60,316 bases of DNA from a virus (taxonomy: Duplodnaviria > Caudoviricetes). Where the stretch lies: positions 1 to 60,316 of the IMG/VR virus record IMGVR_UViG_3300018080_000195. One strand, written 5' to 3'. Shown here in pieces: positions 10,236 to 54,722 of the stretch (position 1 is the first letter of the stretch; each line of letters opens with the position of its first letter). Position numbers and translations under genes: made by a program. The notes under the pieces were generated by a model. The model searched no databases, had not been told where the DNA came from, and was given only the letters and a program-made list of their open reading frames with translations.

Positions 10236-10429
10236 GTCTTATGCCGTTCGTCCATCAAGAACTGCTTGTAATCAAAGTTCTCGTGCGGTCCAAGACAGAT
10301 CTCTTCTTCGTCAACGATGACCCACAAATGTTGACTCAGATCTAGCCATACCGCGGACGCTTTCTTCAGTAAATTTCTTTTCTCTTCTTTCGAGAGTGAA
10401 GAACCCGTGCGATGTTGGGTAGCTGTCAT
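10232..10429 (-). CDS. possible small hypothetical protein
   Basis: Fills a gap and its stop overlaps the next start, but the start codon is uncertain. Confidence 0.3.
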   Translation of the reverse strand: MTATQHRTGSSLSKEEKRNLLKKASAVWLDLSQHLWVIVDEEEICLGPHENFDYKQFLMDERHKT

Positions 10430-13596: not shown

Positions 13597-13604
13597 GTCG
13601 TCTC

Positions 13605-14920: not shown

Positions 14921-14944
14921 GTCCCCAATCGTCCTGCCCTCCTA

Positions 14945-26054: not shown

Positions 26055-27887
26055 TCAGTAATTTCCAACCAGGCTAGCGTCCGGCGTGAATGTTCCAAAG
26101 AATCTCGTACTCCTCCGAGCACGGAATTCATCAGGTCCGAGCATACGGCCTCCGTACATGCACCAGCCTAAGGAGTAGATGAAGTCGTCTTGGATTCCGT
26201 ACCGTTCGGCCTTCTCCGGGGAGCCAAACCAACGCTTCTCGATGTCATGATCGAAGATGCTCATCTCTTCGCGCATGATGTCCTCTTTCTTGCTGCCGTG
26301 GATTGGAATTGGAGGAGCTTTGAATCTTCCTTTAGCAACTACGTTGAAGAGTTCCTTGAACGCTCCTCTCTGTCTGTCATATGTCGGATAGATCGCTTCG
26401 AACTGGATTTCGCGCTCCTCGGACCAGGGTTGCAAGTCCCATATGCCGTAACGCTCTCCGCAGATCATGTCGATTCCATCGTACTCCTCATTGACTGCTT
26501 CAAGGATCGACTTCATCTTGTCCATGCTGTGATCCTCGATGTCCGCAGCATACAACAGGAAGTAGATATACTCCGGGTTTCCTAGCTCCTGATTATATAT
26601 ATAAGGTCTACTACGACACCCGACCAATCCTTTCAGCATGAACGTCATGATCGTCCGAGCGTTGCTCCTCTGCGACATCGGGTCGGCCATGTCAATCCCT
26701 GCGAGGAGGGCCCAGTCCGTATCGAGCAGTTTGCTCAGATTCTCGATCTCCTGCATCGTCGGAAACTTCGGAACTGGATAACTCGGATCTGTCATACTGA
26801 TGACATCCGAGACAAGCTTGAAGCGTTGCTCGATGTTGTACGCTTTCACTTCCAGCTTCGTAGCTGCATCGAACAACCCGCGTCCCTCAATATCAATCTT
26901 GTTGTCGATCAGCTTGTTCCGCTCCACTACAGCTTCGTGGACTTCCGTGTGATTGAGCAGAGCGTCCTCCGTTCCAAGTATCGCAGTCTCCTCTATCATC
27001 TCGTCCGTGAAGACTCTCGCTTGTCCTGCGCTCCACAAGTTGAGGAAGTAACGCTCAAACTCTCCAAACGGAAACGTGACGCGATAGTCGTTCAACTGCG
27101 TCTCGTCCATGTTCGGATTCCAGTAATCGTCCGGCATTCCCTCTCTGGAGTGACGATAGGAGAAGAACACTTCCTTCGTCTTCTGCTCCGTGAAGCTGTG
27201 ATAGAGTTGGTACAGAACGTGCTGCTTGTCCGAGACTGTGGAGTCAATGATCCCTAGTGCGTTCGGCATGTTACGGATCGAACCGTACAACTGCACGTAG
27301 AACTTCGGATTCTTCATGTCGAAGATCTCGGAGAACGTGAACCCAGTAATGTTGGAGACGATTCCGGAGAAGCTAGAAATCGAACGGATCAGGGATAGCA
27401 CCTTCCCCCGGCCGTCCTTCAAGTGGATCTCTTTCTCCTGAATGTTCTTCTTTCCGACTTGCTCAAACAAAGTAGGAGAGTTGTACAGGATGTCGCGGAT
27501 AATATCATAGTGGACAAACTTCACTTGATCCTTCGAGTTCGCTCCGAGCATGATCTGCTGCTTCGGCCAACAAAAGAACTTCCATAGCTGTATGAGACAT
27601 ACGAGTAACGATTTGCCTTCCCCACGCATCCAACAGAAGACGATCAGACGGTACTTGAACCTGCCGTTCTCAATAACGAGACACTGACGCACTACTTCCT
27701 GCTGCGACTCCCAGATGCCAGAGTAGGATTTCCCCGTAGCAGGGTTCCTCTCCGTGGGGAGTTCTCCCATCGGACACCACTCGGGTATCGTCTCCCCCGG
27801 GTAGTAGATCGGCACACACACATGATCATTGCAGAAGTTGATGAATCCTTCCGCTCCATTCCGATACTTCTTGAAGTTGATTCTCAT
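26055..27887 (-). CDS. terL: terminase large subunit
   Basis: Walker A MRGEGKS, GANSKDQ, atypical Walker B FTFSEIF, IIDST, nuclease AGIDMA...QDDFIYSLGW. Confidence 0.9.
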   Translation of the reverse strand: MRINFKKYRNGAEGFINFCNDHVCVPIYYPGETIPEWCPMGELPTERNPATGKSYSGIWESQQEVVRQCLVIENGRFKYRLIVFCWMRGEGKSLLVCLIQLWKFFCWPKQQIMLGANSKDQVKFVHYDIIRDILYNSPTLFEQVGKKNIQEKEIHLKDGRGKVLSLIRSISSFSGIVSNITGFTFSEIFDMKNPKFYVQLYGSIRNMPNALGIIDSTVSDKQHVLYQLYHSFTEQKTKEVFFSYRHSREGMPDDYWNPNMDETQLNDYRVTFPFGEFERYFLNLWSAGQARVFTDEMIEETAILGTEDALLNHTEVHEAVVERNKLIDNKIDIEGRGLFDAATKLEVKAYNIEQRFKLVSDVISMTDPSYPVPKFPTMQEIENLSKLLDTDWALLAGIDMADPMSQRSNARTIMTFMLKGLVGCRSRPYIYNQELGNPEYIYFLLYAADIEDHSMDKMKSILEAVNEEYDGIDMICGERYGIWDLQPWSEEREIQFEAIYPTYDRQRGAFKELFNVVAKGRFKAPPIPIHGSKKEDIMREEMSIFDHDIEKRWFGSPEKAERYGIQDDFIYSLGWCMYGGRMLGPDEFRARRSTRFFGTFTPDASLVGNY

Positions 27888-27976
27888 TCCTTGTCTCCGA
27901 AGTAAGCAAGAAGGACTCCGACAAGCAGGACGAGCAGCATAGCGTAAACAACTCCGTTTGGAACGTCTTCCATCAT
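27884..27976 (-). CDS. 30-aa single-TM micropeptide
   Basis: MMEDVPNGVVYAMLLVLLVGVLLAYFGDKE; start overlaps the upstream TAA and stop overlaps the terL ATG (ATGA). Confidence 0.6.
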   Translation of the reverse strand: MMEDVPNGVVYAMLLVLLVGVLLAYFGDKE

Positions 27977-28815
27977 TATTTCACATACTTTCTATAGAAA
28001 TCTGTCTGCTTCATTGAGTTTGTGCCGAGCCGGACACGCTCTCCAAACGTATTCGTCCGCGGCTCACTCTCTATCCACTTCTTCTGCTGCTCAGACGCTT
28101 CCAGTCCAAGGATGGAGAGCAAGCGGAGCCATTCCGCTTTCCTGTCGTCTGGATCGCTCAGGTTCACAATATGCACGGACGCTCCGTACTGTCTGATCAA
28201 ATCACTGACTTTCGCGTAGTTCAGAGTCAAACGCGCTTTGAAACTGGAAATGTTCTGCTCGATATTCTGTCCTTTCGGATGGATTCCTTTGTTCCATGTC
28301 CAGAACATCTCCTCCAGGTTCCTCCTCACAGGGTAGATATACAACGAGCGGCGTGCGTTAAAGAACAGCCCGCGTCTTTCTTTCTCACGAATATTAGCAA
28401 AAGCTTTCCAAGCTTCGTCATCACGTATAGCTAACACTTTCTTGGAGAATGCCGCGTCCGCTCCAGTCTTCGCATTCTTATCCAACAGGAAATCCTTGTG
28501 CTCACACGGAACTCCTTGGACATTCGCAGGAGGAGCTTTGTTCGTTCCAAAGCGCGAACGCAAACTGTCAATCGCTCCTCCAGCAGTGTTAAAACAGTAA
28601 GCTTCCGGGTGCAGGTGCACAAAGGCCGCAATGTGCATTGTAGCACAGCCAGGGGTGCCCCCAATGTAAACAAGCAACTTTTCCGACGACATAGCTTCCT
28701 CCTCCAAAAAGTCCTCAATCCGAACAGTGCAGTTCCGACACTTCCTCTTAGAATGAACAGGAGCAGTATTCCGCTCAAAGCTCCTCAGATAAGGATTATT
28801 CGTCCTCGTCTTCAT
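27976..28815 (-). CDS. divergent sulfotransferase-like P-loop protein (start may be 28692)
   Basis: LVYIGGTPGCATMHIAAFVHLHPE resembles FI.G.pRSGTT.l...L..HP; also YPVRRNL, RLLSILGL. Confidence 0.5.
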   Translation of the reverse strand: MKTRTNNPYLRSFERNTAPVHSKRKCRNCTVRIEDFLEEEAMSSEKLLVYIGGTPGCATMHIAAFVHLHPEAYCFNTAGGAIDSLRSRFGTNKAPPANVQGVPCEHKDFLLDKNAKTGADAAFSKKVLAIRDDEAWKAFANIREKERRGLFFNARRSLYIYPVRRNLEEMFWTWNKGIHPKGQNIEQNISSFKARLTLNYAKVSDLIRQYGASVHIVNLSDPDDRKAEWLRLLSILGLEASEQQKKWIESEPRTNTFGERVRLGTNSMKQTDFYRKYVK

Positions 28816-29425
28816 CTTCCTCCAAAGACTTCCTCCGTCTCACCCTACGCGAGGGCTCCTCCAGTGAAGCATGAAAGTCCGGATTTCCGTACTCCAACGG
28901 ATCACGTATGGAAGTAGGAGCGAAAGCAGATGCGGAAGTACCGTGCAACCCGAGAGCTTTCCACTCCTTCGAGATCGCTTGGAGAGTATCTCGGATCTCC
29001 TTAAACACAGGATTCGCTCGACGAACTCCTTTGTCATCCAGATAGATCGCATCCTGTATAGAGTGCTCCACTATAAGCAACTTACACAACATCTTATAGA
29101 GCGGCATCATATGCAGCCCGACCCTGTAGAGGCGCGGCTCATCCATCTGATCCGCGAAGTTCCTGTAGAGTATAATTGACAGGGATTTCAAGAACTGGGA
29201 ATGGGTTTGACATTTTACTGCTGGGCCTTTCTGGTACGGACAGGTCGTCTCTATCGGGCAGTCATTCATCCGGCACATCGGCACCGCATCCCAGGAGTAG
29301 AAGAGGGAAGTGGCATTGAATTTACCTTTCGGGAGTTTCTGTGTGCCAAACCCTTTTGCGTAGGCCGGGCCCGCTATACTGTTCAGATCTTGTATGTCTG
29401 TAGTGCTCAGTCCGTTTCCATTCAT
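28796..29425 (-). CDS. putative terminase small subunit with Cys cluster
   Basis: DDKGVRRANPVFKEIRDTLQAISKEWKALGL resembles the P27-type TerS C-terminus (NP...LGL); first gene of the late arm. Confidence 0.6.
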   Translation of the reverse strand: MNGNGLSTTDIQDLNSIAGPAYAKGFGTQKLPKGKFNATSLFYSWDAVPMCRMNDCPIETTCPYQKGPAVKCQTHSQFLKSLSIILYRNFADQMDEPRLYRVGLHMMPLYKMLCKLLIVEHSIQDAIYLDDKGVRRANPVFKEIRDTLQAISKEWKALGLHGTSASAFAPTSIRDPLEYGNPDFHASLEEPSRRVRRRKSLEEDEDEDE

Positions 29426-30104
29426 AGTCGGAATGCTCCCTTCTCCTTGTAAGACGGTCACTGCAACGATACAGGAAGGACTTTTGACTGTCAAGTTGAA
29501 AGTTCATTTTCTCGATTCCGTAGCGATTTCAGCGTGTTGCGGAGACACGGTACCGGTTCGCTATCATAGAGAAACACAACACAAAATTTTATGGTCGAGT
29601 CTCTGCTCTTTTGTGCAGTGCGTCATATGTCCAAATTTTTGGAGGGGTCGGATTCTGAGTCGCAAACTGAGTCTCATTTTCTCAATGGACTCAGCTAGTT
29701 ACAGCTAAGTCAACGTAATACTCATTATCGGACACTCATAAGTACTCAATTTGATTGCACAAAGCTGGGTGTCGAATATTCTACAATGTGCAATAGTTGC
29801 AGAGTTTCATCCTATGCGAGTCATCACTTCTGCTACTATCCATTCTCGCAGTATGTACTGCAATAACTGACTGAGTTACAGTCCTACAACGACACTGGAT
29901 TCCGACTCGCTTCGCAGTCGATACTACTCAACGATTAGTCCAACTCTCGACACAGTGTCGAATCCGTAAAATCGACTCAGAAAATCCGAATCGACTCAGA
30001 CTAGCAGAAAAGAGAATTGGACTCGGAGAAACCCCTAGAATCGACTCTCTCCAATTCCAATGCATAGGATCAAGCTAGAAAGGAATCAACTAGAAAAGGA
30101 CGTT

Positions 30105-30302
30105 TTCAGGATCCTGAACAGTACATATAGAAGGATCCTTCTATTGCAGGATCCTTTGGAAGGATGATTAGATCCGAAAAGCTAGACTCCGCTCTTCCTG
30201 ACTATCGGATCGAATGTCGAGCTGGACAAGATCCGATATTGGAATCGTCAGGACAAGATCCTAGACTTTGATATTGGAAGGATCGAACAGAGCGGAGTCT
30301 AG
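30105..30302. other. GATC-rich palindrome cluster and branched hairpin
   Basis: Palindromes TTCAGGATCCTGAA (30105-30118) and TAGAAGGATCCTTCTA (30128-30143); 14-bp closing stem 30182-30195 / 30289-30302 with internal stems. Confidence 0.7.
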
Positions 30303-30361
30303 TATTAACTGAAAAGGAAGTCGTGAATTTGGACTATTCTCGACTTCCTGAAGCACAAAGA

Positions 30362-30399
30362 AAAAGAGCATGTCCGAGTGTTACAGGACATGCTCTTTT
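30362..30399. terminator. intrinsic terminator, potentially bidirectional
   Basis: AAAAGAGCATGTCC / GGACATGCTCTTTT 14-bp stem just downstream of the leftward mini-operon. Confidence 0.8.
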
Positions 30400-30429
30400 C
30401 TGCTACTGACTATTAGTCGCTAATAGTCG

Positions 30430-30609
30430 CTAACAGGAATCGAAGAAGTCGCTTTTCCGAATCTTCAATCCTTGCAAGTTGTGATACAAACGCGCTGCAA
30501 GTGTCTGCATTTCTTCAATCGTGAGAAGATACAAGTCGAGACTCTCGACTTCTAGAATGTCTTTCAAGTCTTCTATTGCTCTCCTCAGAATGTCTCTTCT
30601 GCTTTCCAT
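30430..30609 (-). CDS. hypothetical protein, 59 aa
   Basis: MESRRDILRRAIEDLKDILEV...DFFDSC with AAAGGAG RBS; below the ORF-track cutoff. Confidence 0.65.
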   Translation of the reverse strand: MESRRDILRRAIEDLKDILEVESLDLYLLTIEEMQTLAARLYHNLQGLKIRKSDFFDSC

Positions 30610-30624
30610 TTCTCTGACTCCTTT

Positions 30625-30819
30625 CTAGTCTTTCAGGATCCTTTGCTCTTGAGGATACATGCTGTAGATCGTCCGGAGCAATTCATCCGTTGCACTTGCA
30701 AAGTCTTTCCGGAACTGTTCGATCTCCTCCAAGAGTCGATCGTATTCTTGGATGACTTCCTTTCTTGTAGTGTTCCAATTCAAGGAACGACAATCTCTTG
30801 CATGAGTCGGAGCTAACAT
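30625..30819 (-). CDS. hypothetical protein, 64 aa
   Basis: GAGGAG RBS; helical. Confidence 0.65.
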   Translation of the reverse strand: MLAPTHARDCRSLNWNTTRKEVIQEYDRLLEEIEQFRKDFASATDELLRTIYSMYPQEQRILKD

Positions 30820-30834
30820 AGTCTTTTCTCCTCT

Positions 30835-30939
30835 TTAAGTGCATCCATTCAGCAAAGGACAAGTTGCAATCACAACAAAGAGATATAGAAGGACGCAGAT
30901 TGTCATTAGGATTCGGAAAGTCCAATTTGTCTCTTTCAT
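30835..30939 (-). CDS. 34-aa hydrophobic micropeptide
   Basis: MKETNWTFRILMTICVLLYLFVVIATCPLLNGCT; fills the gap between two genes. Confidence 0.4.
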   Translation of the reverse strand: MKETNWTFRILMTICVLLYLFVVIATCPLLNGCT

Positions 30940-30951
30940 GATTCATCGTTT

Positions 30952-31509
30952 CTACAGGATCAATCCGTCTTCTCGGAGATCCTGCAACTGGAATGCTACT
31001 TCCGTCATCTGTTCCGGAGTCCACGTATTCCAAGTGATGATGAAGTCCTTTGACTCTTCGTCCAGGAATGCGAGATTCTTCTCTACTAATCCTTCGTTCC
31101 TGTATTCGTATATAGTCGTCTTGCTTGTGTTCCAAGGAAGATCGACTATAGGAACGAGTCCTGACTTGTCCTTTTTCTTGATTGGACGAAGGATTCCGTT
31201 TGCTGCATCCGATACTAACTGGAAACAAGCTAATGACTTTTTCGTCTTGAGTCCAAATCCAAAGATTGTCTTTTCTCCTCTTTGCTTGGACTCTTTCTTG
31301 TCCTTTGGAATGGACTTCCGGAACGCAATACACAGAACGTTGTCGAGACACATTTGACATTTTGTGTCTGAAGACTCGATTTGTCCAAGACAAACGTTCA
31401 ACGTCTGCATCTGCGTACGGAACTGTTCTGGAATGTGTCCAAGCAATCCGTAAATCGCTAAGACAATCCATTCCTGGACGACTCTGACAATAGTTTTTTC
31501 CGCGCTCAT
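30952..31509 (-). CDS. Zn-finger plus FG...PWN...TxY family protein (paralog 1)
   Basis: CLGQIESSDTKCQMCLDNVLC...KTIFGF...LPWNTSKTTIYE; AAAGGA RBS. Confidence 0.75.
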   Translation of the reverse strand: MSAEKTIVRVVQEWIVLAIYGLLGHIPEQFRTQMQTLNVCLGQIESSDTKCQMCLDNVLCIAFRKSIPKDKKESKQRGEKTIFGFGLKTKKSLACFQLVSDAANGILRPIKKKDKSGLVPIVDLPWNTSKTTIYEYRNEGLVEKNLAFLDEESKDFIITWNTWTPEQMTEVAFQLQDLREDGLIL

Positions 31510-31674
31510 TTTGAATTCCTTTCTTTTTCGAGTTAGACGTAAACGTCCAATTGTCGAAGTCGAATCGACTCGGATTCTTGCTACTGCGAATCATGTAAAA
31601 TCTCATCTCCTTTCTTGAGCAGATTCGGACTCAACTTTCTGAGTCCTTGCTCAGAGTCTTTCCGACTCGATAAC

Positions 31675-31704
31675 AGATTACTCGACTCGACAAATATATG
31701 TCAA
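31675..31704 (-). promoter_or_regulatory. sigma70-like promoter for the leftward mini-operon
   Basis: TTGACA-N18-TAATCT on the minus strand. Confidence 0.45.
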
Positions 31705-31734
31705 GTGAATTTACAATTTAATTTCGCAAGTATC

Positions 31735-31995
31735 TGAGTCTGAAGAATACTCAGTCAATTGCTTTCCGAGTCAATTAAATTCTTGACTGAGTATTCAAAG
31801 GACTTATTGACTATCGAGTCAAGTTATTGCTCATTCACTGAGTCAAAACTTGACTATCGAGTCAAAGTCTTTCTTTATTAGTCAGTCAATTCGCTTGCTA
31901 TCGAGTCAAGTCGAAGTCTGAGTCAATATTCGTTCTATCAGTCGAGACGTGACTCAAGTAAAACAAAGCGACTCAGAACTATAACATGAGTCAGA
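31735..31995. repeat. GAGTCA(A) motif cluster with TTGACT-ATCG-AGTCAA palindromic boxes
   Basis: TTGACTATCGAGTCAA at 31807-31822 and 31850-31865, variant at 31895-31909; 14-bp inverted repeat 31745-31758 / 31783-31796. Confidence 0.8.
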
Positions 31996-32435
31996 TCTCA
32001 GATCTGGGCCACCCCGATTTCGCTGGCATCCGATATTTTGTGATACCACGGGTGGGAAAAACACACACAACGCGGCTCAGGACGCCGCTCCTCAAAAACC
32101 AAACCGAAAACGGATCAAAAACACCACAATCTCCTCAACAGTGCGGAGAATAGTAGACTCACCATACGTGCTTGTAAATAGTTGATTCAATTAGACTTTT
32201 TCAAGTGAGAAGAATATTCAACAATAACTGTAGAATATTCTACAATCAGAGCGTATGTGGCACACCCATACGGGTATGTCTGAATCGACTATTTTATTGA
32301 ATTTAGTTAATGAATTCAAGCGTTTACAATGTGGTCATAATAGTCGCTAATAGTTTTGTATGAATATTGCATACAAATTACTTGAAGTAGATCCATTAAA
32401 TGCGGGTAACCGCAAAACACGAAAGGAGTCAGAAC

Positions 32436-32603
32436 ATGGAAGAGCAGACAAAGCAAGCAGGAGGATGGGACCGTGTGCGTAATTTCTTCTCAGAAGGAGT
32501 AGATGCGCCGAAGCTGAGTATGGACGAGATCAAGGAACTGAGTCCGGAAGAGAGAGCAGAAGTCAAGATGCTCGTGCTCGCCGCACTCAACAAGAGCGAC
32601 TAG
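32436..32603 (+). CDS. hypothetical protein, first gene of the right arm
   Basis: AAAGGAG RBS; MEEQTKQAGGWDRVRNFF. Confidence 0.7.
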   Translation: MEEQTKQAGGWDRVRNFFSEGVDAPKLSMDEIKELSPEERAEVKMLVLAALNKSD

Positions 32604-32662
32604 CTGTCGGAGTCCTGAGTTGTAGTCTGACTCAGGACTCTCATCAGTCAGTCGCTTTTTTT
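32595..32662 (+). terminator. terminator-like nested hairpin
   Basis: GAGTCCTGAGT / ACTCAGGACTC stem (32610-32640) inside AGCGACT / AGTCGCT, followed by a T run. Confidence 0.6.
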
Positions 32663-32783
32663 ATGTCAACTCACAGGAGAGAGGAGGTGCCAGCGTCAGA
32701 TCACAAAGTCAGACTAGATGTCTGAGTCAAGAGCGAGAAAATAAGCAAGAAAATTTCACTGAGTCAGAAAGGAGAAAGGAGCT

Positions 32784-33038
32784 ATGCATTTAACTGAGCG
32801 AGAAATTAATGAGATGCTCGGAAAGCGGCCCGTGTACTACATCAAGGACACGGATGGAGGATGGTACCTGAAGCGGAAGAGATGGGACCGCGAAGGATGC
32901 TGTCTGAGTCTCACTTGGACTCATGATCGCTCGGATGCGACTCCGTACAGGAAGGAACTCACCGCTATCGAGATCAAGGACAGAATCCGAGTCGATTACG
33001 AGAGAGAGACCGTCGAAGTGTTGCAAGTCTGGAACTGA
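32784..33038 (+). CDS. hypothetical protein
   Basis: AAAGGAG RBS; 84 aa. Confidence 0.7.
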   Translation: MHLTEREINEMLGKRPVYYIKDTDGGWYLKRKRWDREGCCLSLTWTHDRSDATPYRKELTAIEIKDRIRVDYERETVEVLQVWN

Positions 33039-33060
33039 GTCAATGAAAGGAGTCTGAGTC

Positions 33061-33303
33061 ATGTATATCCAATCATTCCTAGTCAGAGGAACGGGCCACT
33101 TTCCGTATGATATGCTTCGATACGATGGATGCTGGCCCAGCACGTCGGATGATGTACTGGAGATGACATACGAGTCCCGCGAATCGAGAGTAGTCAAGTT
33201 GACTCGATACACCCGGACGAAGAAAGAGATGCCGACAACTGGAAGATGGACCTCATTCGGATGGAACGTAGTCAAGGACTCAATCTCTACCTTCAAGGAC
33301 TGA
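33061..33303 (+). CDS. hypothetical phage protein
   Basis: FLVRGTGHFPYDMLRYDGCWP...PTTGRWTSFGW; RBS present. Confidence 0.75.
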   Translation: MYIQSFLVRGTGHFPYDMLRYDGCWPSTSDDVLEMTYESRESRVVKLTRYTRTKKEMPTTGRWTSFGWNVVKDSISTFKD

Positions 33304-33308
33304 GAGAG

Positions 33309-33707
33309 ATGCCGAGTAAGTACTCAGAATGGAAGTGCAAGTGCGGAAAGAAGTATATCCCCGCAAAGAAAGTGTATGGCGGATACGTCTATGAGTGCGA
33401 CTCATGTTCTTTTGTGACTCAACAAGAGGATATAGACTGGAAAGCAGGACGCACTGATAAGTACGTGGGCCGCATGTCGGAAAAGAGCAACGAAGGAATA
33501 ATCATTTTCAGGAACGACATTGCGGCCCATAAGCTACAGTTGAGACTCGAATCATCTCGTGGAATGGCACCGAACTTGAACATTACGAGTCCAGTCGGAG
33601 CGTTAGTCCGCCAGCAAGAGGATGAGAACAAGTCAATGGAGAAGGAGCCAACTATAGAGGAAGTACTCAAGGAGAAGGAAGATGACACCGATAACGAGCA
33701 GGATTAG
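33309..33707 (+). CDS. zinc-ribbon hypothetical protein
   Basis: WKCKCGK...ECDSC. Confidence 0.6.
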   Translation: MPSKYSEWKCKCGKKYIPAKKVYGGYVYECDSCSFVTQQEDIDWKAGRTDKYVGRMSEKSNEGIIIFRNDIAAHKLQLRLESSRGMAPNLNITSPVGALVRQQEDENKSMEKEPTIEEVLKEKEDDTDNEQD

Positions 33708-37135: not shown

Positions 37136-37840
37136 ATGATTAGCGAAGCAGTAAAGAGGGAGAAAATCGAGAAAATTCGCAAACTTCAGAGACAGGCCGA
37201 AAGCACAGACTTTGCACCGGAGAGAGAGTTGTGCCTCCAACGCATCGAACAGATTATGGAGGAGTACCAGATTCTAGCGGAGGAGATGGAGGATCTGCCG
37301 ATAGGAGACATTGGAGCAAGCGAATTGGATGGATTGACCAATGAGTTCACAGTCATGAGACACTGGGAGAGCGTCCTAGCATACGCTGTAGCTGACATCT
37401 TTGACTGCACGACAGTCCGGGACCGCGGACGCAGACGATGGAAAACTGTATTCATTGGATCAAGAGAGCGGCTCATGTGTGCTATCCACTTCTATGACTT
37501 CCTACGAAGGGCGATAGACAAGTCAGCCACGGAGAAATTTTCTTCCTCAGAGGATCAGGCCACTTACAGTCAGATGTTCACGAATGTAGTCTCTGTCCGG
37601 CTCCGTGATAAGTACAAGCAGAGACAGCAGGAAGTGGGCAAAGAGAGCACCGCATTAGTTCATCTCAGAAGAAAGGAGGTCGACAGAGTGAGAGATGATT
37701 TGTTCCCGGAAGCGGAGCAGAACAACGAGCGCATGGAGCAGGGCAACCGTGATGCCCTGCTACAAGGAATGAGGGACGGAGAGGAGATTCCACTGAGCCG
37801 TCCTGTGGAGCAAGGAGAAGACAGACGCACTATCAAATGA
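37136..37840 (+). CDS. DUF2786-like protein
   Basis: KIEKIRKLQRQAES...E...IMEEYQI N-terminus; WESVLAYAVADIFDC...FIG. Confidence 0.75.
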   Translation: MISEAVKREKIEKIRKLQRQAESTDFAPERELCLQRIEQIMEEYQILAEEMEDLPIGDIGASELDGLTNEFTVMRHWESVLAYAVADIFDCTTVRDRGRRRWKTVFIGSRERLMCAIHFYDFLRRAIDKSATEKFSSSEDQATYSQMFTNVVSVRLRDKYKQRQQEVGKESTALVHLRRKEVDRVRDDLFPEAEQNNERMEQGNRDALLQGMRDGEEIPLSRPVEQGEDRRTIK

Positions 37841-37856
37841 AAGGAGGTACTACACT

Positions 37857-38786
37857 ATGGAAAAGCAAGATCAAGAAGTACAGGCCATGCTGGACGAGAT
37901 GAACAGAGTCAAAGCGATCCGGCTCGACGTGCGTGAGCGGTATCCGGAGACGAAGTTCCCGGACGTGTACAAGGAGCCGATCTGGATTGGACGCGACCGG
38001 AACGATATCGAGTTACAGAAGGACAGCGTTGCGATCTGCGGCTCCTTCAATGAGGATCACTCGGACAGGATTCGCTACGCCTACGGATCGAACCAGTACA
38101 AGATCGTGACCCATGAGGAAGCGATCACGAGCATTGAAGCCGCTCTGCTGGACATGCCCGAGTTCGGAGATCCGAAGATCCAAGTCAGCCTGCTGAACGA
38201 AGGAGCCTTGCTGAGAGCAAGAGTCACCTTCCCTGACTGCAAGTACGAGATCCGAGAGAAGGAGCCCGTCAATCCGCAGTCGAACCTCTTCAACTCCTAC
38301 GACATGAGCAAGAGACTGTTGAGCCAGTTCGGAGCGAAGGAGCTAGTCTGCTCCAACGGACTCATGGCATTCAAAGTCCGTACATCCATCGGACAGAAGC
38401 ATCGGCTCAACATCGACGTAGGATACATCACTCGGGAGATCCAGTCCGGGATGCAGCAGTTCAGCGAACAAGTTGGACTCTGGCAACACTGGGCAAAGAA
38501 GGAGTTGAAGGAACCCGAATGGATACAAGTGTGGGAAGCACTTCCATTCGGAGGAAAGAAGAACGAACTCGGCGAGGAGACAGGACGCTACCGAGAGCAA
38601 CTGTTGGACTATCCGAGGAAGCTGGACCGGAAGACGATCCGCGGCATGTTGAAGGAAGGAACAGTCAATGCGTGGGACGCTCACTCGATCATCACGCAGT
38701 TCATCAGCCATGAGATCGACAGCGAGAATGTGCAGATCGACAAGACCAAGGACGTAGCAAAGGTATTCCATCGACTCGTCAACTAG
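37857..38786 (+). CDS. DUF932-like phage/plasmid protein
   Basis: SNQYKIVTHEE, NSYD, LVCSNGL, KH motifs. Confidence 0.75.
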   Translation: MEKQDQEVQAMLDEMNRVKAIRLDVRERYPETKFPDVYKEPIWIGRDRNDIELQKDSVAICGSFNEDHSDRIRYAYGSNQYKIVTHEEAITSIEAALLDMPEFGDPKIQVSLLNEGALLRARVTFPDCKYEIREKEPVNPQSNLFNSYDMSKRLLSQFGAKELVCSNGLMAFKVRTSIGQKHRLNIDVGYITREIQSGMQQFSEQVGLWQHWAKKELKEPEWIQVWEALPFGGKKNELGEETGRYREQLLDYPRKLDRKTIRGMLKEGTVNAWDAHSIITQFISHEIDSENVQIDKTKDVAKVFHRLVN

Positions 38787-38890
38787 AAAGGAGGAAGGGG
38801 AGCCGTGAGAAGCTCCCCGCTCCTATCATCCACATAAGCAGCGGGTTTATGTGGATGACTGGAGCCAATGTAAGAGAAAGGAGGTTGAAC

Positions 38891-39256
38891 ATGAACAAAG
38901 AAACCAGAACACCGGGATGGGGAGCAGCATGGCTGCTTCCGAAGGAGTGGTCCGCAGCATGGGGAGCACGGGCCATAGCTGACGAAGAGTACGATCCGAA
39001 GCGCAGCAAATGGGAAGCTCCGATGCACAGAGCGAGCCTTCTCGCAGACAGACAGTCAGCATCAGGAAAGAACGAAGCCGTCAGAAAGTTGCTCGACTGG
39101 ATCAATGAGAATGTGCTGCCAATCAGGATGATTTATGACGGATGCAGCAGAGAGGTCACAGTCGTAGATGACGGCGAGTTTCATGCACGATGGACGCCGA
39201 ATGCGAGCTTCGGCTATATCTACATCGTTGCATGGATGGACAAGCCGGATGGGTAG
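38891..39256 (+). CDS. hypothetical protein
   Basis: AGGAGG RBS; AWGARAI...TPNASFGYIYIVAW. Confidence 0.7.
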   Translation: MNKETRTPGWGAAWLLPKEWSAAWGARAIADEEYDPKRSKWEAPMHRASLLADRQSASGKNEAVRKLLDWINENVLPIRMIYDGCSREVTVVDDGEFHARWTPNASFGYIYIVAWMDKPDG

Positions 39257-39443
39257 ACGTAATCCTCTTCCTAAGTATGAACGGGACGAGGACAAACTCG
39301 GTGACCCCATGCTGAAGATGCTGGAGCCGGAGGAGGACACAACTACGTTCTGGTACGACTTCACCCATCTCGACTGGAAGGAGATTGTTGCTATCCTGAT
39401 AGTAGCAGCATGGCTCCTCTATTGCGTTTACACCTACAACTGA
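39249..39443 (+). CDS. small membrane protein
   Basis: C-terminal hydrophobic IVAILIVAAWLLYCV. Confidence 0.55.
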   Translation: MGRRNPLPKYERDEDKLGDPMLKMLEPEEDTTTFWYDFTHLDWKEIVAILIVAAWLLYCVYTYN

Positions 39444-39459
39444 AGAAAGGAGAAAGAGA

Positions 39460-40038
39460 ATGACGACACGAAAGGAGTGGCCCCACACAGCATCGTTGCT
39501 AACGTGTATGTCCACAGCATCCGGCACCTCCATACAAGAGGCAAAGTACTGTCTCCTCGGAGCCGCTGTGATGATGATGGACACACATCACCTGAGAACT
39601 ATCGGCGAAGCTGCGGACTACTTGCTGCCGCTGTTTCCGAAAGAGTTTCGAATCGAAGCTATCCCCTATGACTGGCTCGGCCTTGAGGAGGAGATCACTC
39701 TCGATTTCTTGGAGAAGATCACACCGTTCGCTACGCTGTGGGATGCTCTCTCGGAGGAAGAGAAACGAGCGAATCCGGACCTGTACGCAGAACTGCTGCG
39801 CCGCTATGTGTACGTTGTAGCAAGTATGTTCCGTGAGCACCGGAGATATGAACAAGCGGACAGTAGACTCTTTACGTGGCGCCAAGCAGGAACACAGTGG
39901 CTCGCAGAATGGGAAGTCAATGACTTGTCCTTGCCAAACAATCCGAACAAAGTGAACTGGCACCTGCAGAACACGTCACAGTGGAGATACGCTGGCTGCT
40001 TGCTCGTGCAAGACGGCCGAGTCTCCGTCCACACATAG
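39460..40038 (+). CDS. hypothetical protein
   Basis: 192 aa, RBS. Confidence 0.7.
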   Translation: MTTRKEWPHTASLLTCMSTASGTSIQEAKYCLLGAAVMMMDTHHLRTIGEAADYLLPLFPKEFRIEAIPYDWLGLEEEITLDFLEKITPFATLWDALSEEEKRANPDLYAELLRRYVYVVASMFREHRRYEQADSRLFTWRQAGTQWLAEWEVNDLSLPNNPNKVNWHLQNTSQWRYAGCLLVQDGRVSVHT

Positions 40039-40052
40039 CGAGAAGGAGGGAC

Positions 40053-40310
40053 ATGACACGGAATCGGCGAGCACGATACTTCACCTATGTAGGATCGTAT
40101 GACGGAGCGATCCGAATGGGTCAATCCTGGGTCCGTGCGAACAACCTGCACAGGATTGACAAGACCGGAATGATCCGCTGGCAGGGGGTTCCCTCGGAAG
40201 CCCTCAGTCGGGCACTCACGGAGCAGGACCCGACTGAGGCCGAAGAACTCATTCCTGGCCGGAGACTAAAGAAAGGAGGGGCAGTAAGTGTCAAAGGAGG
40301 TCGAATGTAA
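40053..40310 (+). CDS. hypothetical protein
   Basis: AGGAGG RBS; MTRNRRARYF. Confidence 0.6.
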   Translation: MTRNRRARYFTYVGSYDGAIRMGQSWVRANNLHRIDKTGMIRWQGVPSEALSRALTEQDPTEAEELIPGRRLKKGGAVSVKGGRM

Positions 40311-40455
40311 AGTCTACAACTGTCCTTTATGTGAACTTGGGGCTGAAAGAATGATAGAAATCCCAATTTGGGACCATGAAAGTATGTCAGTGAAAATGTA
40401 TAGACTAAGCGAAGACCTAGCAAAGAAACTAGGCTTCATCAGAGAGGAGGCATAG

Positions 40456-41250
40456 ATGCGAGTACTATCAATAGACTGGGACTACTTCCTTCCAGATGTT
40501 GCCATGTACGATTGGGGGCACCGCGAGAGCAAGTTCTTCGTGGAGTCCTCATGGTCGCTACGCTGTGGCTCCCACAACCTGTTGACTGGAGAGCGAGCAC
40601 TGGAGTCCGTGAACCCGGATAAGAAGCTACTTCATAACTTCTGGGAGAAGCGAGTCAGTGGCTCAGGACTCGCTATGCTTGTTGCAGAGTCACACGCAAC
40701 GATGTACTACTGGCTCAGAGACTTCACAATCAGCGAAGTAGTGAACTTTGACCAGCACCATGACTTGGGATATCCATCCGCAAAAGGAGAACTGGACTGC
40801 GGAAACTGGGCCGGAAAGATGATCAACGAAGGAAGGATCAAACGCTACACCCTCGTCTATCCACCTTGGAGAAGGAACAAGAAGCAGAGAGAGGATCTGC
40901 CGAAAAAGAAGAAGGGGGTAGTGGAAATCTTCCACGATGCCGAAGCTGTGCCTCGTGAAGAGTATGATGCAATCTTCATCTGTCGGAGCGGTGCATGGAC
41001 TCCATCCTGGTGCGACAAGGACTTCACGAAGTTCGTCCGATACTGGGTCGGATATCCTGTCTGGGATCACGTCCGATTCTCTGACTACAATCCTATGATT
41101 CTGCGCTCTCCGGACAGAGAGGAGGCAAAGCATCTAGCAGATGAGCATGAGCGTCTACACACGAACCTCGACGCTCTGAACGCTATCAAGGAAGAGCATC
41201 AGAGACAGAAGAAGGAAGAGGAGCCTAAGAAGGAGACAAAGGAGAAGTAA
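40456..41250 (+). CDS. UPF0489 / arginase-deacetylase-fold metallohydrolase-like protein
   Basis: VLSIDWDYF, ESHA, VNFDQHHDL, LDCGNW, FICRSGAWTP. Confidence 0.75.
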   Translation: MRVLSIDWDYFLPDVAMYDWGHRESKFFVESSWSLRCGSHNLLTGERALESVNPDKKLLHNFWEKRVSGSGLAMLVAESHATMYYWLRDFTISEVVNFDQHHDLGYPSAKGELDCGNWAGKMINEGRIKRYTLVYPPWRRNKKQREDLPKKKKGVVEIFHDAEAVPREEYDAIFICRSGAWTPSWCDKDFTKFVRYWVGYPVWDHVRFSDYNPMILRSPDREEAKHLADEHERLHTNLDALNAIKEEHQRQKKEEEPKKETKEK

Positions 41251-43678: not shown

Positions 43679-43838
43679 TTTAGCTGAGTGATCCGGCTAA
43701 GTCGCATTCGTAGGCTCAATCGGATTTTCTGGGCCACTCAGAGGTACATGGGAGGCACGGATGCGGGTCACGCGGCATACACGTAAACCGATACGTCGCC
43801 ATCCGGCGATGTGGGTACCAATGGAGGAAAAACGCACC

Positions 43839-44531
43839 ATGAATGAATTTAGCGTAATCGTTGGCGACTGTAGGGAAAAAATGTCTGAGGTCGGCACGGT
43901 TGACTACATATTCACCGGGCCACCGGACTTCGATGAAGTAGGACTCAATCCAAAGAGCACGAAGGACTACATAGCATATTATGCACTGCTCAAGAGAGCA
44001 TTCGATGAGATGGTCCATGTCACTCCTGTTATCACTGTCGCTATCACAGACAGGAAGTGCGATGGGGAGATCATCCCTAAACACGCAATCGTACAAGATT
44101 TACTCCGAACACATGGATGGAGATGCATATCACACAAGATCTGGAGCAAGTCGATGAAACGTAACTTGTACCGTCTTACATACACACACATCATGTCCTT
44201 TGCAAAGGGAACAGTGAAGCAGAACCACCCCAACGTGTATGAGATAGACGTTCTCCATGCAAAGGAACAGAAGTGGCAAGGATACTCCTACGGGATCAAT
44301 GAGGAGGTCGTCTGGCCCTTCATCCTCAACTTCACGAATGAAGGAGACACTGTGCTCGATCCGTTCCTTGGATCTGGCACTACTGCGGTCGTGTGCTTGC
44401 AGAACAATAGGAACTGCATCGGCATCGAGATCTGCTCAGTCACAGCAGAGATAGCACAAAAGCGGGTCTCCTCTCAAGGACGGATTCCAAGAGCGAGAAA
44501 ATTTTTCGAAGAGCGAGAAAATTTTGATTAG
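43839..44531 (+). CDS. N4/N6 DNA methyltransferase-like (beta order), atypical motif IV
   Basis: VDYIFTGPPDF ... VLDPFLGSGTT ... IGIEI. Confidence 0.85.
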   Translation: MNEFSVIVGDCREKMSEVGTVDYIFTGPPDFDEVGLNPKSTKDYIAYYALLKRAFDEMVHVTPVITVAITDRKCDGEIIPKHAIVQDLLRTHGWRCISHKIWSKSMKRNLYRLTYTHIMSFAKGTVKQNHPNVYEIDVLHAKEQKWQGYSYGINEEVVWPFILNFTNEGDTVLDPFLGSGTTAVVCLQNNRNCIGIEICSVTAEIAQKRVSSQGRIPRARKFFEERENFD

Positions 44532-53151: not shown

Positions 53152-53727
53152 ATGAAGCCGATTGATGAAATCAACATGGACAAACTGATCGAGTGCTGCA
53201 AGCAAGTCAACGAGGTATCCGATGACAAGATAGAAGTCGTTGGGACCTCCACTCCGGACTTGATCAAAGCATTCACACTGCGCCTTGAGAGCATGACGGA
53301 TGAGCAGCAGGACAAGGTGCAGGAAGCCGTCGCGTTCTACAACGATCTGTACGCTGACGAGCAAGTGACAGATCCTCCACCTCCTCCTCCGGACGAAAAG
53401 AAGGAAGAGAAACAGAAGAGTGATCCTGTGAAGAGGAACGTAGCGACTACGAAGAAGAAGAAGGAGAAACCCGCAGCGAAGAAGAAGAAGAAGGAGAAAG
53501 AGCCCGCAGAGAAGAAACCCCCGAAAGAGAAGGACGAGTTCGGCTACACTGTCGGAACGCTGAACAACAAGTTCATGCAAGCGATCAAGCAGAAGCCGAT
53601 GACGATGAAGGAAGTCAAGGACGAAGCGTGGAACGAGAAGAGCGTCACGTTCTACGAGATCTTCAAGAAGGAGCGGGTAGCCGGAAGAGCGTTCAAGGAC
53701 AAAGATGGAAAGATGTCTGTGCGATGA
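53152..53727 (+). CDS. Lys-rich FG...WN...TxY family protein (paralog 3)
   Basis: KDEFGYTVGT...KPMTMKEVKDEAWNEKSVTFYE; TTGACA at 53077-53082 upstream. Confidence 0.75.
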   Translation: MKPIDEINMDKLIECCKQVNEVSDDKIEVVGTSTPDLIKAFTLRLESMTDEQQDKVQEAVAFYNDLYADEQVTDPPPPPPDEKKEEKQKSDPVKRNVATTKKKKEKPAAKKKKKEKEPAEKKPPKEKDEFGYTVGTLNNKFMQAIKQKPMTMKEVKDEAWNEKSVTFYEIFKKERVAGRAFKDKDGKMSVR

Positions 53728-54722
53728 TCGAGACGAAGGAGTACCCTCCGAGAGAGTATCTGTTTCCAGAGGAAAAGGAAATAGACGAGACAGCTAAGGG
53801 GTTGACCTTCGACGCACTGAAGAAGAGTCATGATCGTAGAAGCAATCTCATAGACAAACTCGGCTACGTTCCTACTTCCATCTTCAAGCGAGACAGCAAG
53901 GAACAATTGTATCTCACACAAGATACGTTCATTGAAGAGAGAGGGGGTGGTTACGAGAAGCACAACAAGGAAATGAAGGGGGACCTTCGCAGCTTGGACA
54001 GAGACAAAAACGAATTTCTGCTTGTCAATACTGGATTGCGGATACAAGGCCGGAAAGGGTACTTATCACGTTTTCCTCAGAATGTCGGACGCATCCTGAT
54101 TGAAGTCCATTGTCCAGAGCAAGGAACGATCTACGATCCATTCGCAGGTCACAACAGCAGGATGCAGTTAGCGTATCGTTGCAAACGCAACTACATCGGA
54201 GTGGACATCTGCGCTGAGTACATGAAACTCAATCGGGAACTCCGACAGAAACTCCTCGAAAGACCGGTCTTCGAAGGAGAGTACAAGCCGACACTTGAGT
54301 TGATCGAAGGAAGTTCCGCGAAAGTGGATCTTCCAGACAACTGGGCAGACTTTACGATCACATCCCCACCTTACTGGGATCTGGAGTATTACGGACCAGA
54401 GGAAGAGCAACTTGGATTGGACAAAACGTATGAGGAATTCCTTGAAGCTTTGTATCCGCATATTGTTGAGAACGAGAGAGTGCTGAAGCCCGGAGCGTTC
54501 TGCATCTGGTGCATCAATGACTTCCGGAAGGACAAGAAGTATCACCCGTACCACATAGACTTGTACAAGCTGTTCGAAGTCGCAGGATTCGAAGCGTTCA
54601 ACATCTACATCATTGATCTCGTCAGCGTTGTGCAAGCGTCCTTTGTGCGGGACATAGTGGATCACAAAATCATTCCAAAACAACACGAATATGTACTCGT
54701 ATTCCGAAAGAGAGGAGTGTGA
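53724..54722 (+). CDS. N4/N6 DNA methyltransferase
   Basis: IYDPFAG, YIGVDI, TSPPYWDLEYY, HEYVLVFRK. Confidence 0.9.
   Translation: MIETKEYPPREYLFPEEKEIDETAKGLTFDALKKSHDRRSNLIDKLGYVPTSIFKRDSKEQLYLTQDTFIEERGGGYEKHNKEMKGDLRSLDRDKNEFLLVNTGLRIQGRKGYLSRFPQNVGRILIEVHCPEQGTIYDPFAGHNSRMQLAYRCKRNYIGVDICAEYMKLNRELRQKLLERPVFEGEYKPTLELIEGSSAKVDLPDNWADFTITSPPYWDLEYYGPEEEQLGLDKTYEEFLEALYPHIVENERVLKPGAFCIWCINDFRKDKKYHPYHIDLYKLFEVAGFEAFNIYIIDLVSVVQASFVRDIVDHKIIPKQHEYVLVFRKRGV

What the first reader, a model, noticed from the sequence alone, without database searches (positions are those of the whole stretch)
30036..32005. A 2-kb zone with total exclusion of GGC/GGG/GGT (and GCC/CCC/ACC)
By hand count, all ~110 GG or CC dinucleotides in 30036-32005 are GGA or TCC, on both strands, in coding and non-coding DNA alike. 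Extending left to 29650 adds only two exceptions (gggt at 29767, acccc at 30031). The rule ends abruptly at GGGCCACCCC (32006). It even shapes the proteins: Gly is only GGA, and each Trp is followed by an A-initial codon (WI, WN, WT). The rest of the window prefers GGA/TCC but not absolutely. Three inferences are possible: (a) the phage adds a bulky modification at GG[CGT] and keeps this first-read region clean; (b) this is first-injected DNA evading a host system that recognises that motif; (c) it avoids terminase cut signals.
Basis: partly seen in the sequence, partly recalled or inferred. Interest (0 to 1): 0.85.

Follow-up and report, generated by a model that had tools for sequence, protein, structure and literature searches.

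The report
Phage DNA zone lacking one motif
A 2-kb stretch of an uncultured phage genome contains not one GGC, GGG or GGT on either strand, relatives carry similar stretches with no GG or CC at all, and such stretches occur only in relatives that carry a DNA-modifying enzyme gene.

Summary
Window 30034-32005 has 0 GGB/VCC where about 83 are expected, and all 110 GG/CC are GGA/TCC. In 600 Markov simulations no gap exceeded 440 bp.

It is a family trait. Phages with a related terminase (45-66% identity) carry one zone per genome at the same map position, 0.6-3 kb long. There the zone usually lacks every GG/CC, so its small orphan proteins have no Gly, Pro or Trp.

The excluded third base varies: N in most, B here, W in G026, roughly M in G031/G032.

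The zone co-occurs with a DNA-modification gene just upstream of the clamp and PolA genes. Six genomes have DpdA with 7-deazaguanine synthesis genes; the window and G031 have an SPPY (N4-cytosine-type) methyltransferase. Two complete relatives with neither gene have no zone.

Best reading (0.45): the zone is an early and control region kept free of the target motif of the phage's own modifying enzyme, so it stays unmodified. The main rival (0.3) is avoidance of a host defence that reads the motif. Which end enters the cell first, and the modification itself, remain untested. I found no prior report.

The parts
30034..32005 (.). Core motif-free zone: no GGC, GGG, GGT, GCC, CCC or ACC on either strand; 110 GGA/TCC are kept
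   Evidence: 0 observed against about 83 expected; the largest simulated gap was 440 bp.
29647..30033 (.). Left extension of the zone, non-coding, with two exception clusters (GGGT at 29767-8, ACCCC at 30031-3); it reaches almost to the start of the small-terminase-like gene
   Evidence: GGC/GCC is absent from 29369 to 32006.
30952..31509 (-). Zone ORF of 185 aa, an orphan; Gly is only GGA (10 of 10)
   Evidence: ORF; no PHROG family; only itself among 5.8 billion proteins at near length; codons.
30625..30819 (-). Zone ORF of 64 aa, no family
30430..30609 (-). Zone ORF of 59 aa, the last gene of the leftward zone operon
30683..31606 (-). Alternative 307-aa open frame overlapping the 185-aa ORF; which frame is translated is not settled. 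A 172-aa frame on the + strand (30839-31357) is also open.
   Evidence: My inference from the sequence: the + strand here is pyrimidine-rich, so stop codons are rare on the - strand.
30362..30399 (.). Perfect 14-bp inverted repeat with flanking A and T runs; a likely two-way terminator closing the zone operon
   Evidence: I15, 100% complementary; self-match of the reverse strand.
30104..30158 (.). Cluster of GGATCC-containing repeats in non-coding zone DNA (the zone has 4 GGATCC, 0.2 expected)
   Evidence: (D11, D19, I20).
31807..31911 (.). Three spaced copies (43-44 bp apart) of CTATCGAGTCAA(G/A), with TTGACT before the first two, in the 0.8-kb non-coding part; iteron- or operator-like. GANTC is 43 in the zone against 12.4 expected.
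   Evidence: (D2, D6).
32006..32070 (.). Abrupt right edge, GGGCCACCCC followed by a G/C-run element. It weakly resembles the conserved element found at the terminase-side zone edge of relatives.
   Evidence: a strict pattern search did not find it in the window.
53628..54722 (+). DNA methyltransferase (PF01555, permuted motif order, SPPY motif IV, FAGHNS motif I) in the slot where relatives carry DpdA; candidate writer of the excluded motif
   Evidence: nearest solved chains include DNA cytosine-N4 methyltransferases, matched over the SAM-binding stretch only. That SPPY marks N4-cytosine enzymes is recalled knowledge.
28796..29494 (-). Small-terminase-like gene flanking the zone (homologous to L012 9317-9919, which lies directly upstream of the large terminase gene)
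   Evidence: the G001 73968-74570 ORF is shared by 9 of 10 genomes compared.
26055..27887 (-). Large terminase gene, used as the anchor to find relatives

Best explanation
The zone is a stretch of the phage chromosome that selection keeps free of a 2-3-base motif. It holds a small early-type operon of orphan genes and the genome's largest repeat-rich non-coding DNA.

The motif is most likely the target of the phage's own DNA-modifying enzyme. In most relatives that enzyme is DpdA, which puts a 7-deazaguanine into DNA; its inferred target is GG, any next base. In this phage the same gene slot holds an SPPY-type, probably N4-cytosine, methyltransferase, with inferred target VCC (= GGB). A zone without the motif cannot be modified.

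The virion DNA would then have two states: a modified bulk and one unmodified island. Why the island must stay unmodified is inferred, not shown. The most likely reason is that this DNA acts first after entry. A single modified site there would expose it to modification-dependent nucleases, or disturb host proteins that must read it, before the early proteins are made.

Shown: the exclusion, its conservation, its variable third base, and its co-occurrence with the enzyme gene. Inferred: that the motif is the enzyme's target, that the zone is early or first-entering, and the selective agent.
For: (1) The exclusion is absolute on both strands, in coding and non-coding DNA.

(2) There is one zone per genome at the same map position in relatives whose zone proteins are not alike. 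This means selection acts on the DNA and is not simple inheritance.

(3) Relatives' zone ORFs have 0 Gly, 0 Pro and 0 Trp; examples are L012 at 144, 61, 57 and 80 aa and L034 at 154 aa.

(4) The rule differs by the base after GG. G001 and G030 have none of GGA, GGC, GGG, GGT. The window has GGA 110 (108 expected) and the others 0. G026 has GGA 1 (43), GGT 4 (23), GGC 56 (19) and GGG 17 (25). This is how enzyme specificities vary.

(5) Among genomes of the terminase clade where both regions are held, 8 of 8 with a slot enzyme have a zone and 2 of 2 complete genomes without one have none. The eight are G001, G002, G003, G030, G026 and G027 with DpdA plus Que genes, and the window and G031 with the methyltransferase. 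The two without are G010 and G013.

(6) Taking every G001 ORF of 70 aa or more with a match in any of 10 genomes, only DpdA, FolE, QueE and QueD separate the five DpdA-bearing zone genomes from G010 and G013.

(7) G010 and G013 are not sisters in the terminase tree, and neither are the window and G031.

(8) Phage DpdA enzymes with 2-3-base targets are known: GA and GGC in CAjan, GA in Iggy (titles and abstracts seen). An N4-cytosine methyltransferase of this fold with a dinucleotide target is known (abstract).

(9) A modification-dependent nuclease that restricts 7-deazaguanine phages, escaped by DpdA mutants, is known (passages of PMC12137116).
Against: No modification was measured in any of these phages, and the target of neither enzyme is known.

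The window is only 72% complete, so a DpdA elsewhere in this genome cannot be excluded.

DpdA does not imply a zone outside this clade. Phage Iggy (strict GA target) has no GA/TC-free stretch; its longest gap is 171 bp. The complete DpdA-bearing G011 has none. Four partial DpdA contigs (G017, G018, G020, G021) show none in the part held.

The correlation rests on 10 genomes that share ancestry.

G027's zone is only about 5-fold depleted, and G031's rule is blurred by AGGGT repeats and a contig end.

Outside the zone this phage also has 2-fold fewer GGB/VCC, in all codon phases. Protection by its own enzyme alone does not predict this; a harmful motif does.

Transcription is not known to be blocked by 7-deazaguanine or N4-methylcytosine (recalled), so 'host proteins must read it' is weak as a reason for an absolute ban.
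Confidence: 0.45

Rival explanations
1. The motif is read by a host defence, and the phage's enzyme is a second answer to the same threat. The defence could be a CRISPR system with a GG/CC-type adjacent motif or a nuclease with a very short site. The bulk genome is shielded by modifying the G:C pairs of the motif. The DNA that is exposed first, or cannot be modified in time, is shielded by not having the motif. This follows the T5 first-step-transfer logic.
For: T5-like phages resist restriction and CRISPR unless sites lie in the first-transferred region. That region also borders a long repeat-rich non-coding stretch (passages of PMC10644984). Motifs in the leading region decide sensitivity in Autographiviridae (abstract of PMC12455610).

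Both 7-deazaguanine and N4-methylcytosine change the major-groove face of a G:C pair (established chemistry, recalled).

This phage is 2-fold depleted in GGB/VCC genome-wide, in all codon phases, and so is its closest relative L221. G013, L111 and L131, where no slot enzyme is known, are 2-fold depleted in GGA/TCC. This points to pressure on GGN words beyond the phage's own enzyme.
Against: No known defence reads only GG or GGB. Known adjacent motifs do not usually specify the base that varies here (recalled).

The same GG/CC rule holds in phages of 35-48% G+C, which probably have different hosts.

If modification protects, it is unclear why the zone is not simply modified too.

Entry order is untested. 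Contig depth gives no sign of a terminal repeat: 6.9 in the zone against 7.3-8.5 beside it.
Confidence: 0.3
2. The zone is a cis-acting control region (replication origin, packaging site, operator arrays). Its proteins or DNA mechanics do not tolerate GG/CC steps or their modified forms, and the small ORFs are carried along.
For: The zone has iteron-like repeats in every genome inspected. The window has three CTATCGAGTCAA copies, and G030 has many ACGCATGCGCAC copies. The zone holds the largest non-coding stretches. A conserved element marks the terminase-side edge in G001, G026 and G027.
Against: Binding sites need tens of bases, not kilobases. The ban also covers protein-coding DNA at the cost of three amino acids. 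The rule changes its third base between genomes, which DNA mechanics does not predict.
Confidence: 0.1
3. The zone results from local hypermutation, for example a deaminase or error-prone repair acting at the motif, rather than from selection.
For: The zones have lower G+C than their genomes, 0.42 against 0.49 here and 0.29 against 0.42 in L028. Zone genes evolve fast and are orphans.
Against: ORFs of 120-185 aa stay open. The trinucleotides expected as products of C-to-T change at VCC are not consistently enriched: GAC/GTC 1.52 and ACT/AGT 1.40, but CTC/GAG 0.84, AGG/CCT 0.83 and AGC/GCT 0.62. The zone edges are sharp. A mutational balance gives depletion, not 0 of 83-234.
Confidence: 0.05

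Closest known systems
First-step-transfer region of T5-like phages and the leading region of Autographiviridae
   Same: Each is a defined part of the genome holding small early genes of unknown function next to long repeat-rich non-coding DNA. The absence of defence recognition sites in it decides survival (passages of PMC10644984; abstract of PMC12455610).
   Different: There the avoided sites are 5-13-base sites of particular host systems, and the avoidance is partial and strain-specific. Here a 2-3-base word is banned completely, on both strands, at the cost of Gly, Pro and Trp in relatives. The ban also goes with a phage-encoded modifying enzyme. No terminal repeat or entry order is shown here.
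Phages with motif-specific 7-deazaguanine DNA (Queuovirinae such as CAjan; Iggy)
   Same: Relatives G001, G002, G003, G026, G027 and G030 carry DpdA with FolE, QueD, QueE, and QueC or QueF, next to the clamp and polymerase genes. Iggy has the same order.
   Different: The window itself has no DpdA or Que gene in its 60 kb. Iggy has no stretch free of its GA target. The two papers searched for such wording (devoid, depleted, avoid, and similar) gave no passage on this.
DNA methyltransferases with very short targets (the rotifer N4CMT acting at CG; chlorella-virus enzymes, the latter recalled)
   Same: The window's enzyme belongs to PF01555 with an SPPY motif. Its nearest solved chains include N4CMT, which acts at a dinucleotide.
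   Different: The match covers only the SAM-binding stretch (E 5e-8). The target of the window's enzyme is unknown. No motif-free island has been described for those systems, as far as my searches reach.
Vertebrate CpG islands (analogy only)
   Same: Both are a genome with a short methylation target and islands that stay unmethylated around control regions.
   Different: CpG islands keep the motif and escape the enzyme. Here the island lacks the motif altogether.

Membership tests
First-step-transfer or leading region free of defence sites (T5 type) | Lies at the genome end that enters the cell first | not testable with these tools
   Only one run holds the window, and it is kept as contigs. 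No read starts could be seen. Contig ends near zones fall within iteron repeats, so they say nothing about true ends.
First-step-transfer or leading region free of defence sites (T5 type) | Part of a long terminal repeat (double depth in a collapsed assembly) | tested here: inconclusive
   Contig depth is 6.9 across 28887-31377, against 8.5 and 7.3 beside it, so it is not doubled. These are mean depths per contig at about 7x.
First-step-transfer or leading region free of defence sites (T5 type) | Small early genes of unknown function plus a long repeat-rich non-coding stretch | tested here: met
   Three small orphan ORFs, a terminator, and 0.9 and 0.8 kb of non-coding DNA with repeats. Their expression timing was not tested.
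First-step-transfer or leading region free of defence sites (T5 type) | Lacks a recognition motif that is present elsewhere in the genome | tested here: met
   0 against about 83 expected. Whether any defence reads the motif is unknown.
7-deazaguanine (DpdA) DNA-modifying phages | Encodes DpdA and preQ0 synthesis genes | tested here: not met
   This holds for the window: no TGT, QueC or FolE family and no DpdA match in 60316 bp; the record is 72% complete. The feature is met in the relatives G001, G002, G003, G026, G027, G030 and G012.
N4-cytosine DNA methyltransferase (PF01555) | SAM-binding motif I and an SPPY-type motif IV | tested here: met
   PF01555 at 62 bits. The translation shows DPFAGHNS and TSPPYW. 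The assignment of SPPY to N4-cytosine is recalled knowledge.
N4-cytosine DNA methyltransferase (PF01555) | Methylates cytosine in VCC and not in TCC | not testable with these tools
   Needs enzyme expression and methylation mapping.
Classical restriction-site (palindrome) avoidance | Palindromic 4-6-base sites are missing while their sub-words remain | tested here: not met
   The missing words are non-palindromic trinucleotides. GGATCC (4), TCCGGA (4) and CCWGG (2) are present or enriched.
CRISPR adjacent-motif avoidance | The host's system uses the excluded word as its adjacent motif | not testable with these tools
   The host is unknown. There is no tRNA in the window and no cultured relative.

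The most novel reading that the evidence does not exclude
Some phages build 'epigenetic blind spots' into their chromosomes. These are kilobase islands from which the target word of their own DNA-modifying enzyme has been purged, even at the price of proteins without Gly, Pro and Trp. One early or control island then stays unmodified while the rest of the genome is modified.

If so, the missing word reads out the enzyme's specificity from sequence alone: GG for most DpdA enzymes of this clade, GGW for G026, VCC for this phage's methyltransferase, and perhaps TG/CA for an unknown system in G019. The two-state genome would be a way to face both classical and modification-dependent restriction.
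Probability: 0.4. Interest if true: 0.92.

Novelty: categorically new. Interest (0 to 1): 0.88.

Why it matters
There are four reasons.

1. This is one of the strongest local composition signals I know of in any genome. In relatives, 2.2-2.6 kb lack a dinucleotide that occurs 71-104 times per kb elsewhere, and real proteins are built without three amino acids.
2. If the missing word is the target of the phage's modifying enzyme, the specificity of DpdA enzymes and short-site methyltransferases could be predicted from metagenomes without chemistry. Specificity has been worked out for only a few DpdA enzymes.
3. It points to a genome with an unmodified island inside a modified bulk. That is a new element in the contest between modification, classical restriction and modification-dependent restriction.
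4. The zone genes are fast-evolving orphans placed where anti-defence genes are expected, so they are a source of candidates.

No earlier description turned up in the library searches or in term searches of the two papers on DpdA motifs. Papers outside that library were not searched.

Tried and rejected
Searches and tests that led nowhere:
- Close DNA relatives among cultured phages: none. The terminase protein against cultured phages: none.
- Families for the zone ORFs: none in PHROGs. Pfam gave only sub-threshold hints, such as a sigma-70 region-4-like 51-aa ORF in L028 at E 8.6e-5.
- Homologues of the 185-aa zone protein: only itself at near length. Longer and shorter lengths were not searched.
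- Rfam on 29000-33000: nothing near any gathering score. tRNAs: none.
- Promoter and terminator scan: counts within the shuffled range.
- Zone proteins compared between relatives by BLASTP: no matches except the identical L007 and L008. later showed the G001 144-aa ORF matches G002 and G027.
- Public runs: one DNA holder, kept as contigs; no RNA holder listed. Laid contigs gave no read starts. A part without cover at 31854-31897 and lower depth over 31369-32389 at about 7x are not used as evidence.
- Terminal-repeat idea: end repeats of 24-127 bp in the 'direct terminal repeat' records look like assembly overlaps. G030's break lies inside iterons.
- Test of generality among DpdA phages: Iggy has no GA/TC-free stretch.
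- The G016 hit (GGS-free 1188 bp) is an acidic low-complexity coding repeat, a false positive of the scan.
- A single-sequence PolA search found only one locus; an alignment was used instead.
- C5 methyltransferases: none in five genomes.

Explanations considered and rejected:
- Codon usage: the bias is present in all codon phases and both orientations.
- Chance.
- Assembly or sequencing artefact: the trait recurs in many independent assemblies.

Not done: structure prediction, complex prediction, protein atlas. Supplements of papers were not opened.
Full report
**1. The observation.**
The window is a whole IMG/VR virus record of 60316 bp, estimated 72% complete.

Between 30033 and 32006 there is no GGC, GGG, GGT, GCC, CCC or ACC. 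This gap is 1973 bp. The next largest gaps are 263 bp (directly to the left) and 257 bp. The zone holds 50 GGA and 60 TCC.

The frequency in the rest of the window predicts about 83 GGB/VCC, while GGA/TCC is at its normal level. Order-2 and order-3 Markov sequences, 300 each, never gave a gap above 440 bp. With 57% of GG/CC being GGA/TCC elsewhere, 110 of 110 has P about 8e-28.

Gly is GGA only, each Trp is followed by an A-initial codon, and each Pro follows a codon ending in T. The exceptions on the left are as described.

**2. What lies there.**
The window is a siphovirus-type genome. On the minus strand are a tape measure, major head protein, protease and large terminase (26055-27887). On the plus strand from about 32400 is a replication arm with helicase, primase, DnaB-like protein, clamp, PolA and clamp loader. 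GC skew changes sign at the zone.

The zone lies between the small-terminase-like gene (28796-29494) and the first plus-strand genes. It contains:
- three small minus-strand ORFs (185, 64 and 59 aa) without any family or homologue;
- a perfect hairpin at 30362-30399;
- two non-coding stretches rich in repeats, with GGATCC clusters and three CTATCGAGTCAA copies. GANTC is 43 against 12.4 expected.

**3. It is a family trait.**
Relatives were found through the large terminase (45-66% identity) in IMG/VR and metagenome contigs.

Of the 113 loci carry a highly improbable motif-free stretch upstream of the terminase genes. Some of these loci are the same contig in both collections. Many of the other 83 hold too little upstream DNA to judge.

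In these relatives the stretch lacks every GG and CC:
- L012/G001: 2630 bp, with a genome mean of 70.8 per kb.
- G030: 2245 bp, running on across the record's end.
- L064: 1761 bp.
- L133: 1262 bp.
- L008: 1186 bp.

Each of the complete or near-complete genomes G001, G002 and G003 has exactly one such zone. The zone ORFs of relatives have no Gly, Pro or Trp at all, and they are not alike between relatives.

So what is conserved is the ban and the position, not the sequence.

**4. The rule varies.**

| Genome | GGA | GGC | GGG | GGT | Rule |
|---|---|---|---|---|---|
| G001, G030 | 0 | 0 | 0 | 0 | GGN |
| Window | 110 (108 expected) | 0 | 0 | 0 | GGB |
| G026 | 1 (43) | 56 (19) | 17 (25) | 4 (23) | GGW |

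- G031 and G032 are 99.3% identical over the 7160 bp compared and count as one phage. In them GGA and GGC are nearly absent while GGG and GGT remain in AGGGT repeats.
- G027 is about 5-fold depleted, not cleared.

**5. Link to a modifying enzyme.**
In G001 the genes just upstream of clamp and PolA are DpdA, QueF-like, FolE, QueC, QueE and QueD. DpdA matches PHROG 887 at E 2e-47 and is 31% identical to Iggy DpdA. DpdA sits in the same slot in G002, G003, G026, G027 and G030.

In the window that slot holds a PF01555 methyltransferase with an SPPY motif. G031 has a 50% identical one.

Two complete genomes of the same terminase clade, G010 and G013, have neither gene and no zone. G010 has an ordinary PF01555 enzyme elsewhere in its genome.

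Using all G001 ORFs as queries, only DpdA, FolE, QueE and QueD separate the DpdA genomes from G010 and G013. In the terminase tree G010 and G013 are not sisters, and neither are the window and G031. G012 has DpdA and a GG/CC-free 779 bp at its contig start.

**6. Results against a simple 'DpdA gives a zone'.**
- Iggy, with a strict GA target, has no GA/TC-free stretch.
- G011 is complete, has DpdA and a different terminase, and has no zone.
- Four partial DpdA contigs show none in the part held.
- The sample is small and the genomes are related.
- No modification has been measured in any of them.

**7. A genome-wide footprint in this phage.**
Outside the zone, GGC, GGG and GGT are at 0.45-0.49 of expectation and GGA at 1.79. 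This is seen in all codon phases and both orientations.

Of 193 terminase loci, only L221 shares this. L221 is the closest relative, at 66% terminase identity.

The GG/CC-type relatives show no such genome-wide depletion.

G013, L111 and L131 show the opposite bias, with GGA/TCC at about 0.5.

This says the word carries a cost everywhere in this lineage. That fits a harmful motif, modified or not, better than perfect protection by modification.

**8. How it most likely works.**
The best-supported reading is that the missing word is the target of the phage's own modifying enzyme, so the zone stays unmodified.

An absolute, both-strand, kilobase-wide ban suggests that a single site there is very costly. 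The most plausible agent is a nuclease that recognises the modified site. Such a system is known for 7-deazaguanine phages, and it is escaped by DpdA mutants. It would act on DNA that works before early anti-defence proteins exist.

The rival is that a host system reads the unmodified word, and that both the zone and the enzyme answer it. This is the T5 logic.

Neither entry order nor the physical ends could be tested.

**9. Comparison and novelty.**
The nearest known things are the site-free first-transferred or leading regions of T5-like and T7-like phages, and the motif-specific 7-deazaguanine phages.

This finding differs from both:
- the banned word is 2-3 bases long;
- the ban is total;
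- it shapes protein composition;
- it co-occurs with a phage enzyme gene;
- the word changes between genomes.

Library searches found no description. Term searches of two DpdA-motif papers found none either.

**10. A possible wider pattern.**
G019 is a more distant phage, with PolA 35% identical and no DpdA. It has a stretch at 74482-75610 with 2 CA/TG where about 113 are expected. The stretch includes a 134-aa ORF whose only TG is in its start codon. Upstream of its clamp gene lie a ThyX homologue, a carrier-protein-like ORF and an LPG_synthase_C-like ORF. This was not followed further.

Noticed in passing
window, all of it outside 29650-32005: GGB/VCC is 2-fold depleted genome-wide (observed/expected 0.45-0.49) and GGA/TCC is enriched (1.79), in all three codon phases and both orientations. 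Of 193 terminase loci only L221, the closest relative, shares this.
   Followed up: yes
G019 (holds L182) 74482-75610: A more distant phage without DpdA has a 1.1-kb stretch with 2 CA/TG where about 113 are expected. It includes a 134-aa ORF (75128-75532) whose only TG is its start codon. A ThyX homologue, a PP-binding ORF and an LPG_synthase_C-like ORF lie upstream of the clamp gene. This may be the same kind of zone with a different word.
   Followed up: partly
G013 whole record; L111; L131: GGA/TCC is about 2-fold depleted genome-wide (0.49-0.52), the opposite of the window. G013 has neither a slot enzyme nor a zone. G013 also has odd stretches at 26211-28241 (no CGC/GCG) and 32279-33700.
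   Followed up: no
window 10311-18884 (-): Inside the structural arm lies a cluster of glycosyltransferases (GT1+GT9 fusion of 724 aa, and GT2), four SAM methyltransferases and two radical SAM proteins (one with a SPASM domain). It could serve virion glycosylation or a further DNA or sugar modification.
   Followed up: partly
L012 7063-7130; G026 56555; G027 32334-32493; L104, L110, L125, L133, L034, L019, L086, L089 zone edges: A conserved non-coding element, CCCCC-TCGTTCTATCTTGA, about 25 nt, then GGGTACC-CACCACAAAATTTTTTCC, marks the terminase-side edge of the zone in many relatives. In the window only a weak look-alike sits at the opposite edge (32006-32070). Its function is unknown.
   Followed up: partly
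window 55821-58436 (+); G001 37272-41069; G002 83216-86974; G010 67684-70536: PolA carries an N-terminal uracil-DNA-glycosylase-family domain. In G001 and G002 the PolA frame is 1265-1292 aa with the match in two pieces. G010's terminase frame (972 aa) is likewise split, which suggests inserted elements such as inteins.
   Followed up: no
window 30683-31606 (-) and 30839-31357 (+): Three long frames are open over the same 600 bp (307 and 185 aa on the minus strand, 172 aa on the plus strand). This is probably because the plus strand is pyrimidine-rich. Which frame is translated is unsettled.
   Followed up: partly
window 43761-44531 (+): A second PF01555 methyltransferase has an unusual motif IV (TGPPDF in place of DPPY or SPPY). 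GANTC is 3.5-fold enriched in the zone.
   Followed up: no
L051/L052 (phage Iggy) 59888-60628: The last 741 bp of the Iggy record contain no CGA/TCG (Gumbel excess 11.3). This is a modest signal at a genome end.
   Followed up: no
window 16187-16867 (-): A NUMOD3-motif protein, probably a homing endonuclease, sits between the glycosyltransferase genes.
   Followed up: no
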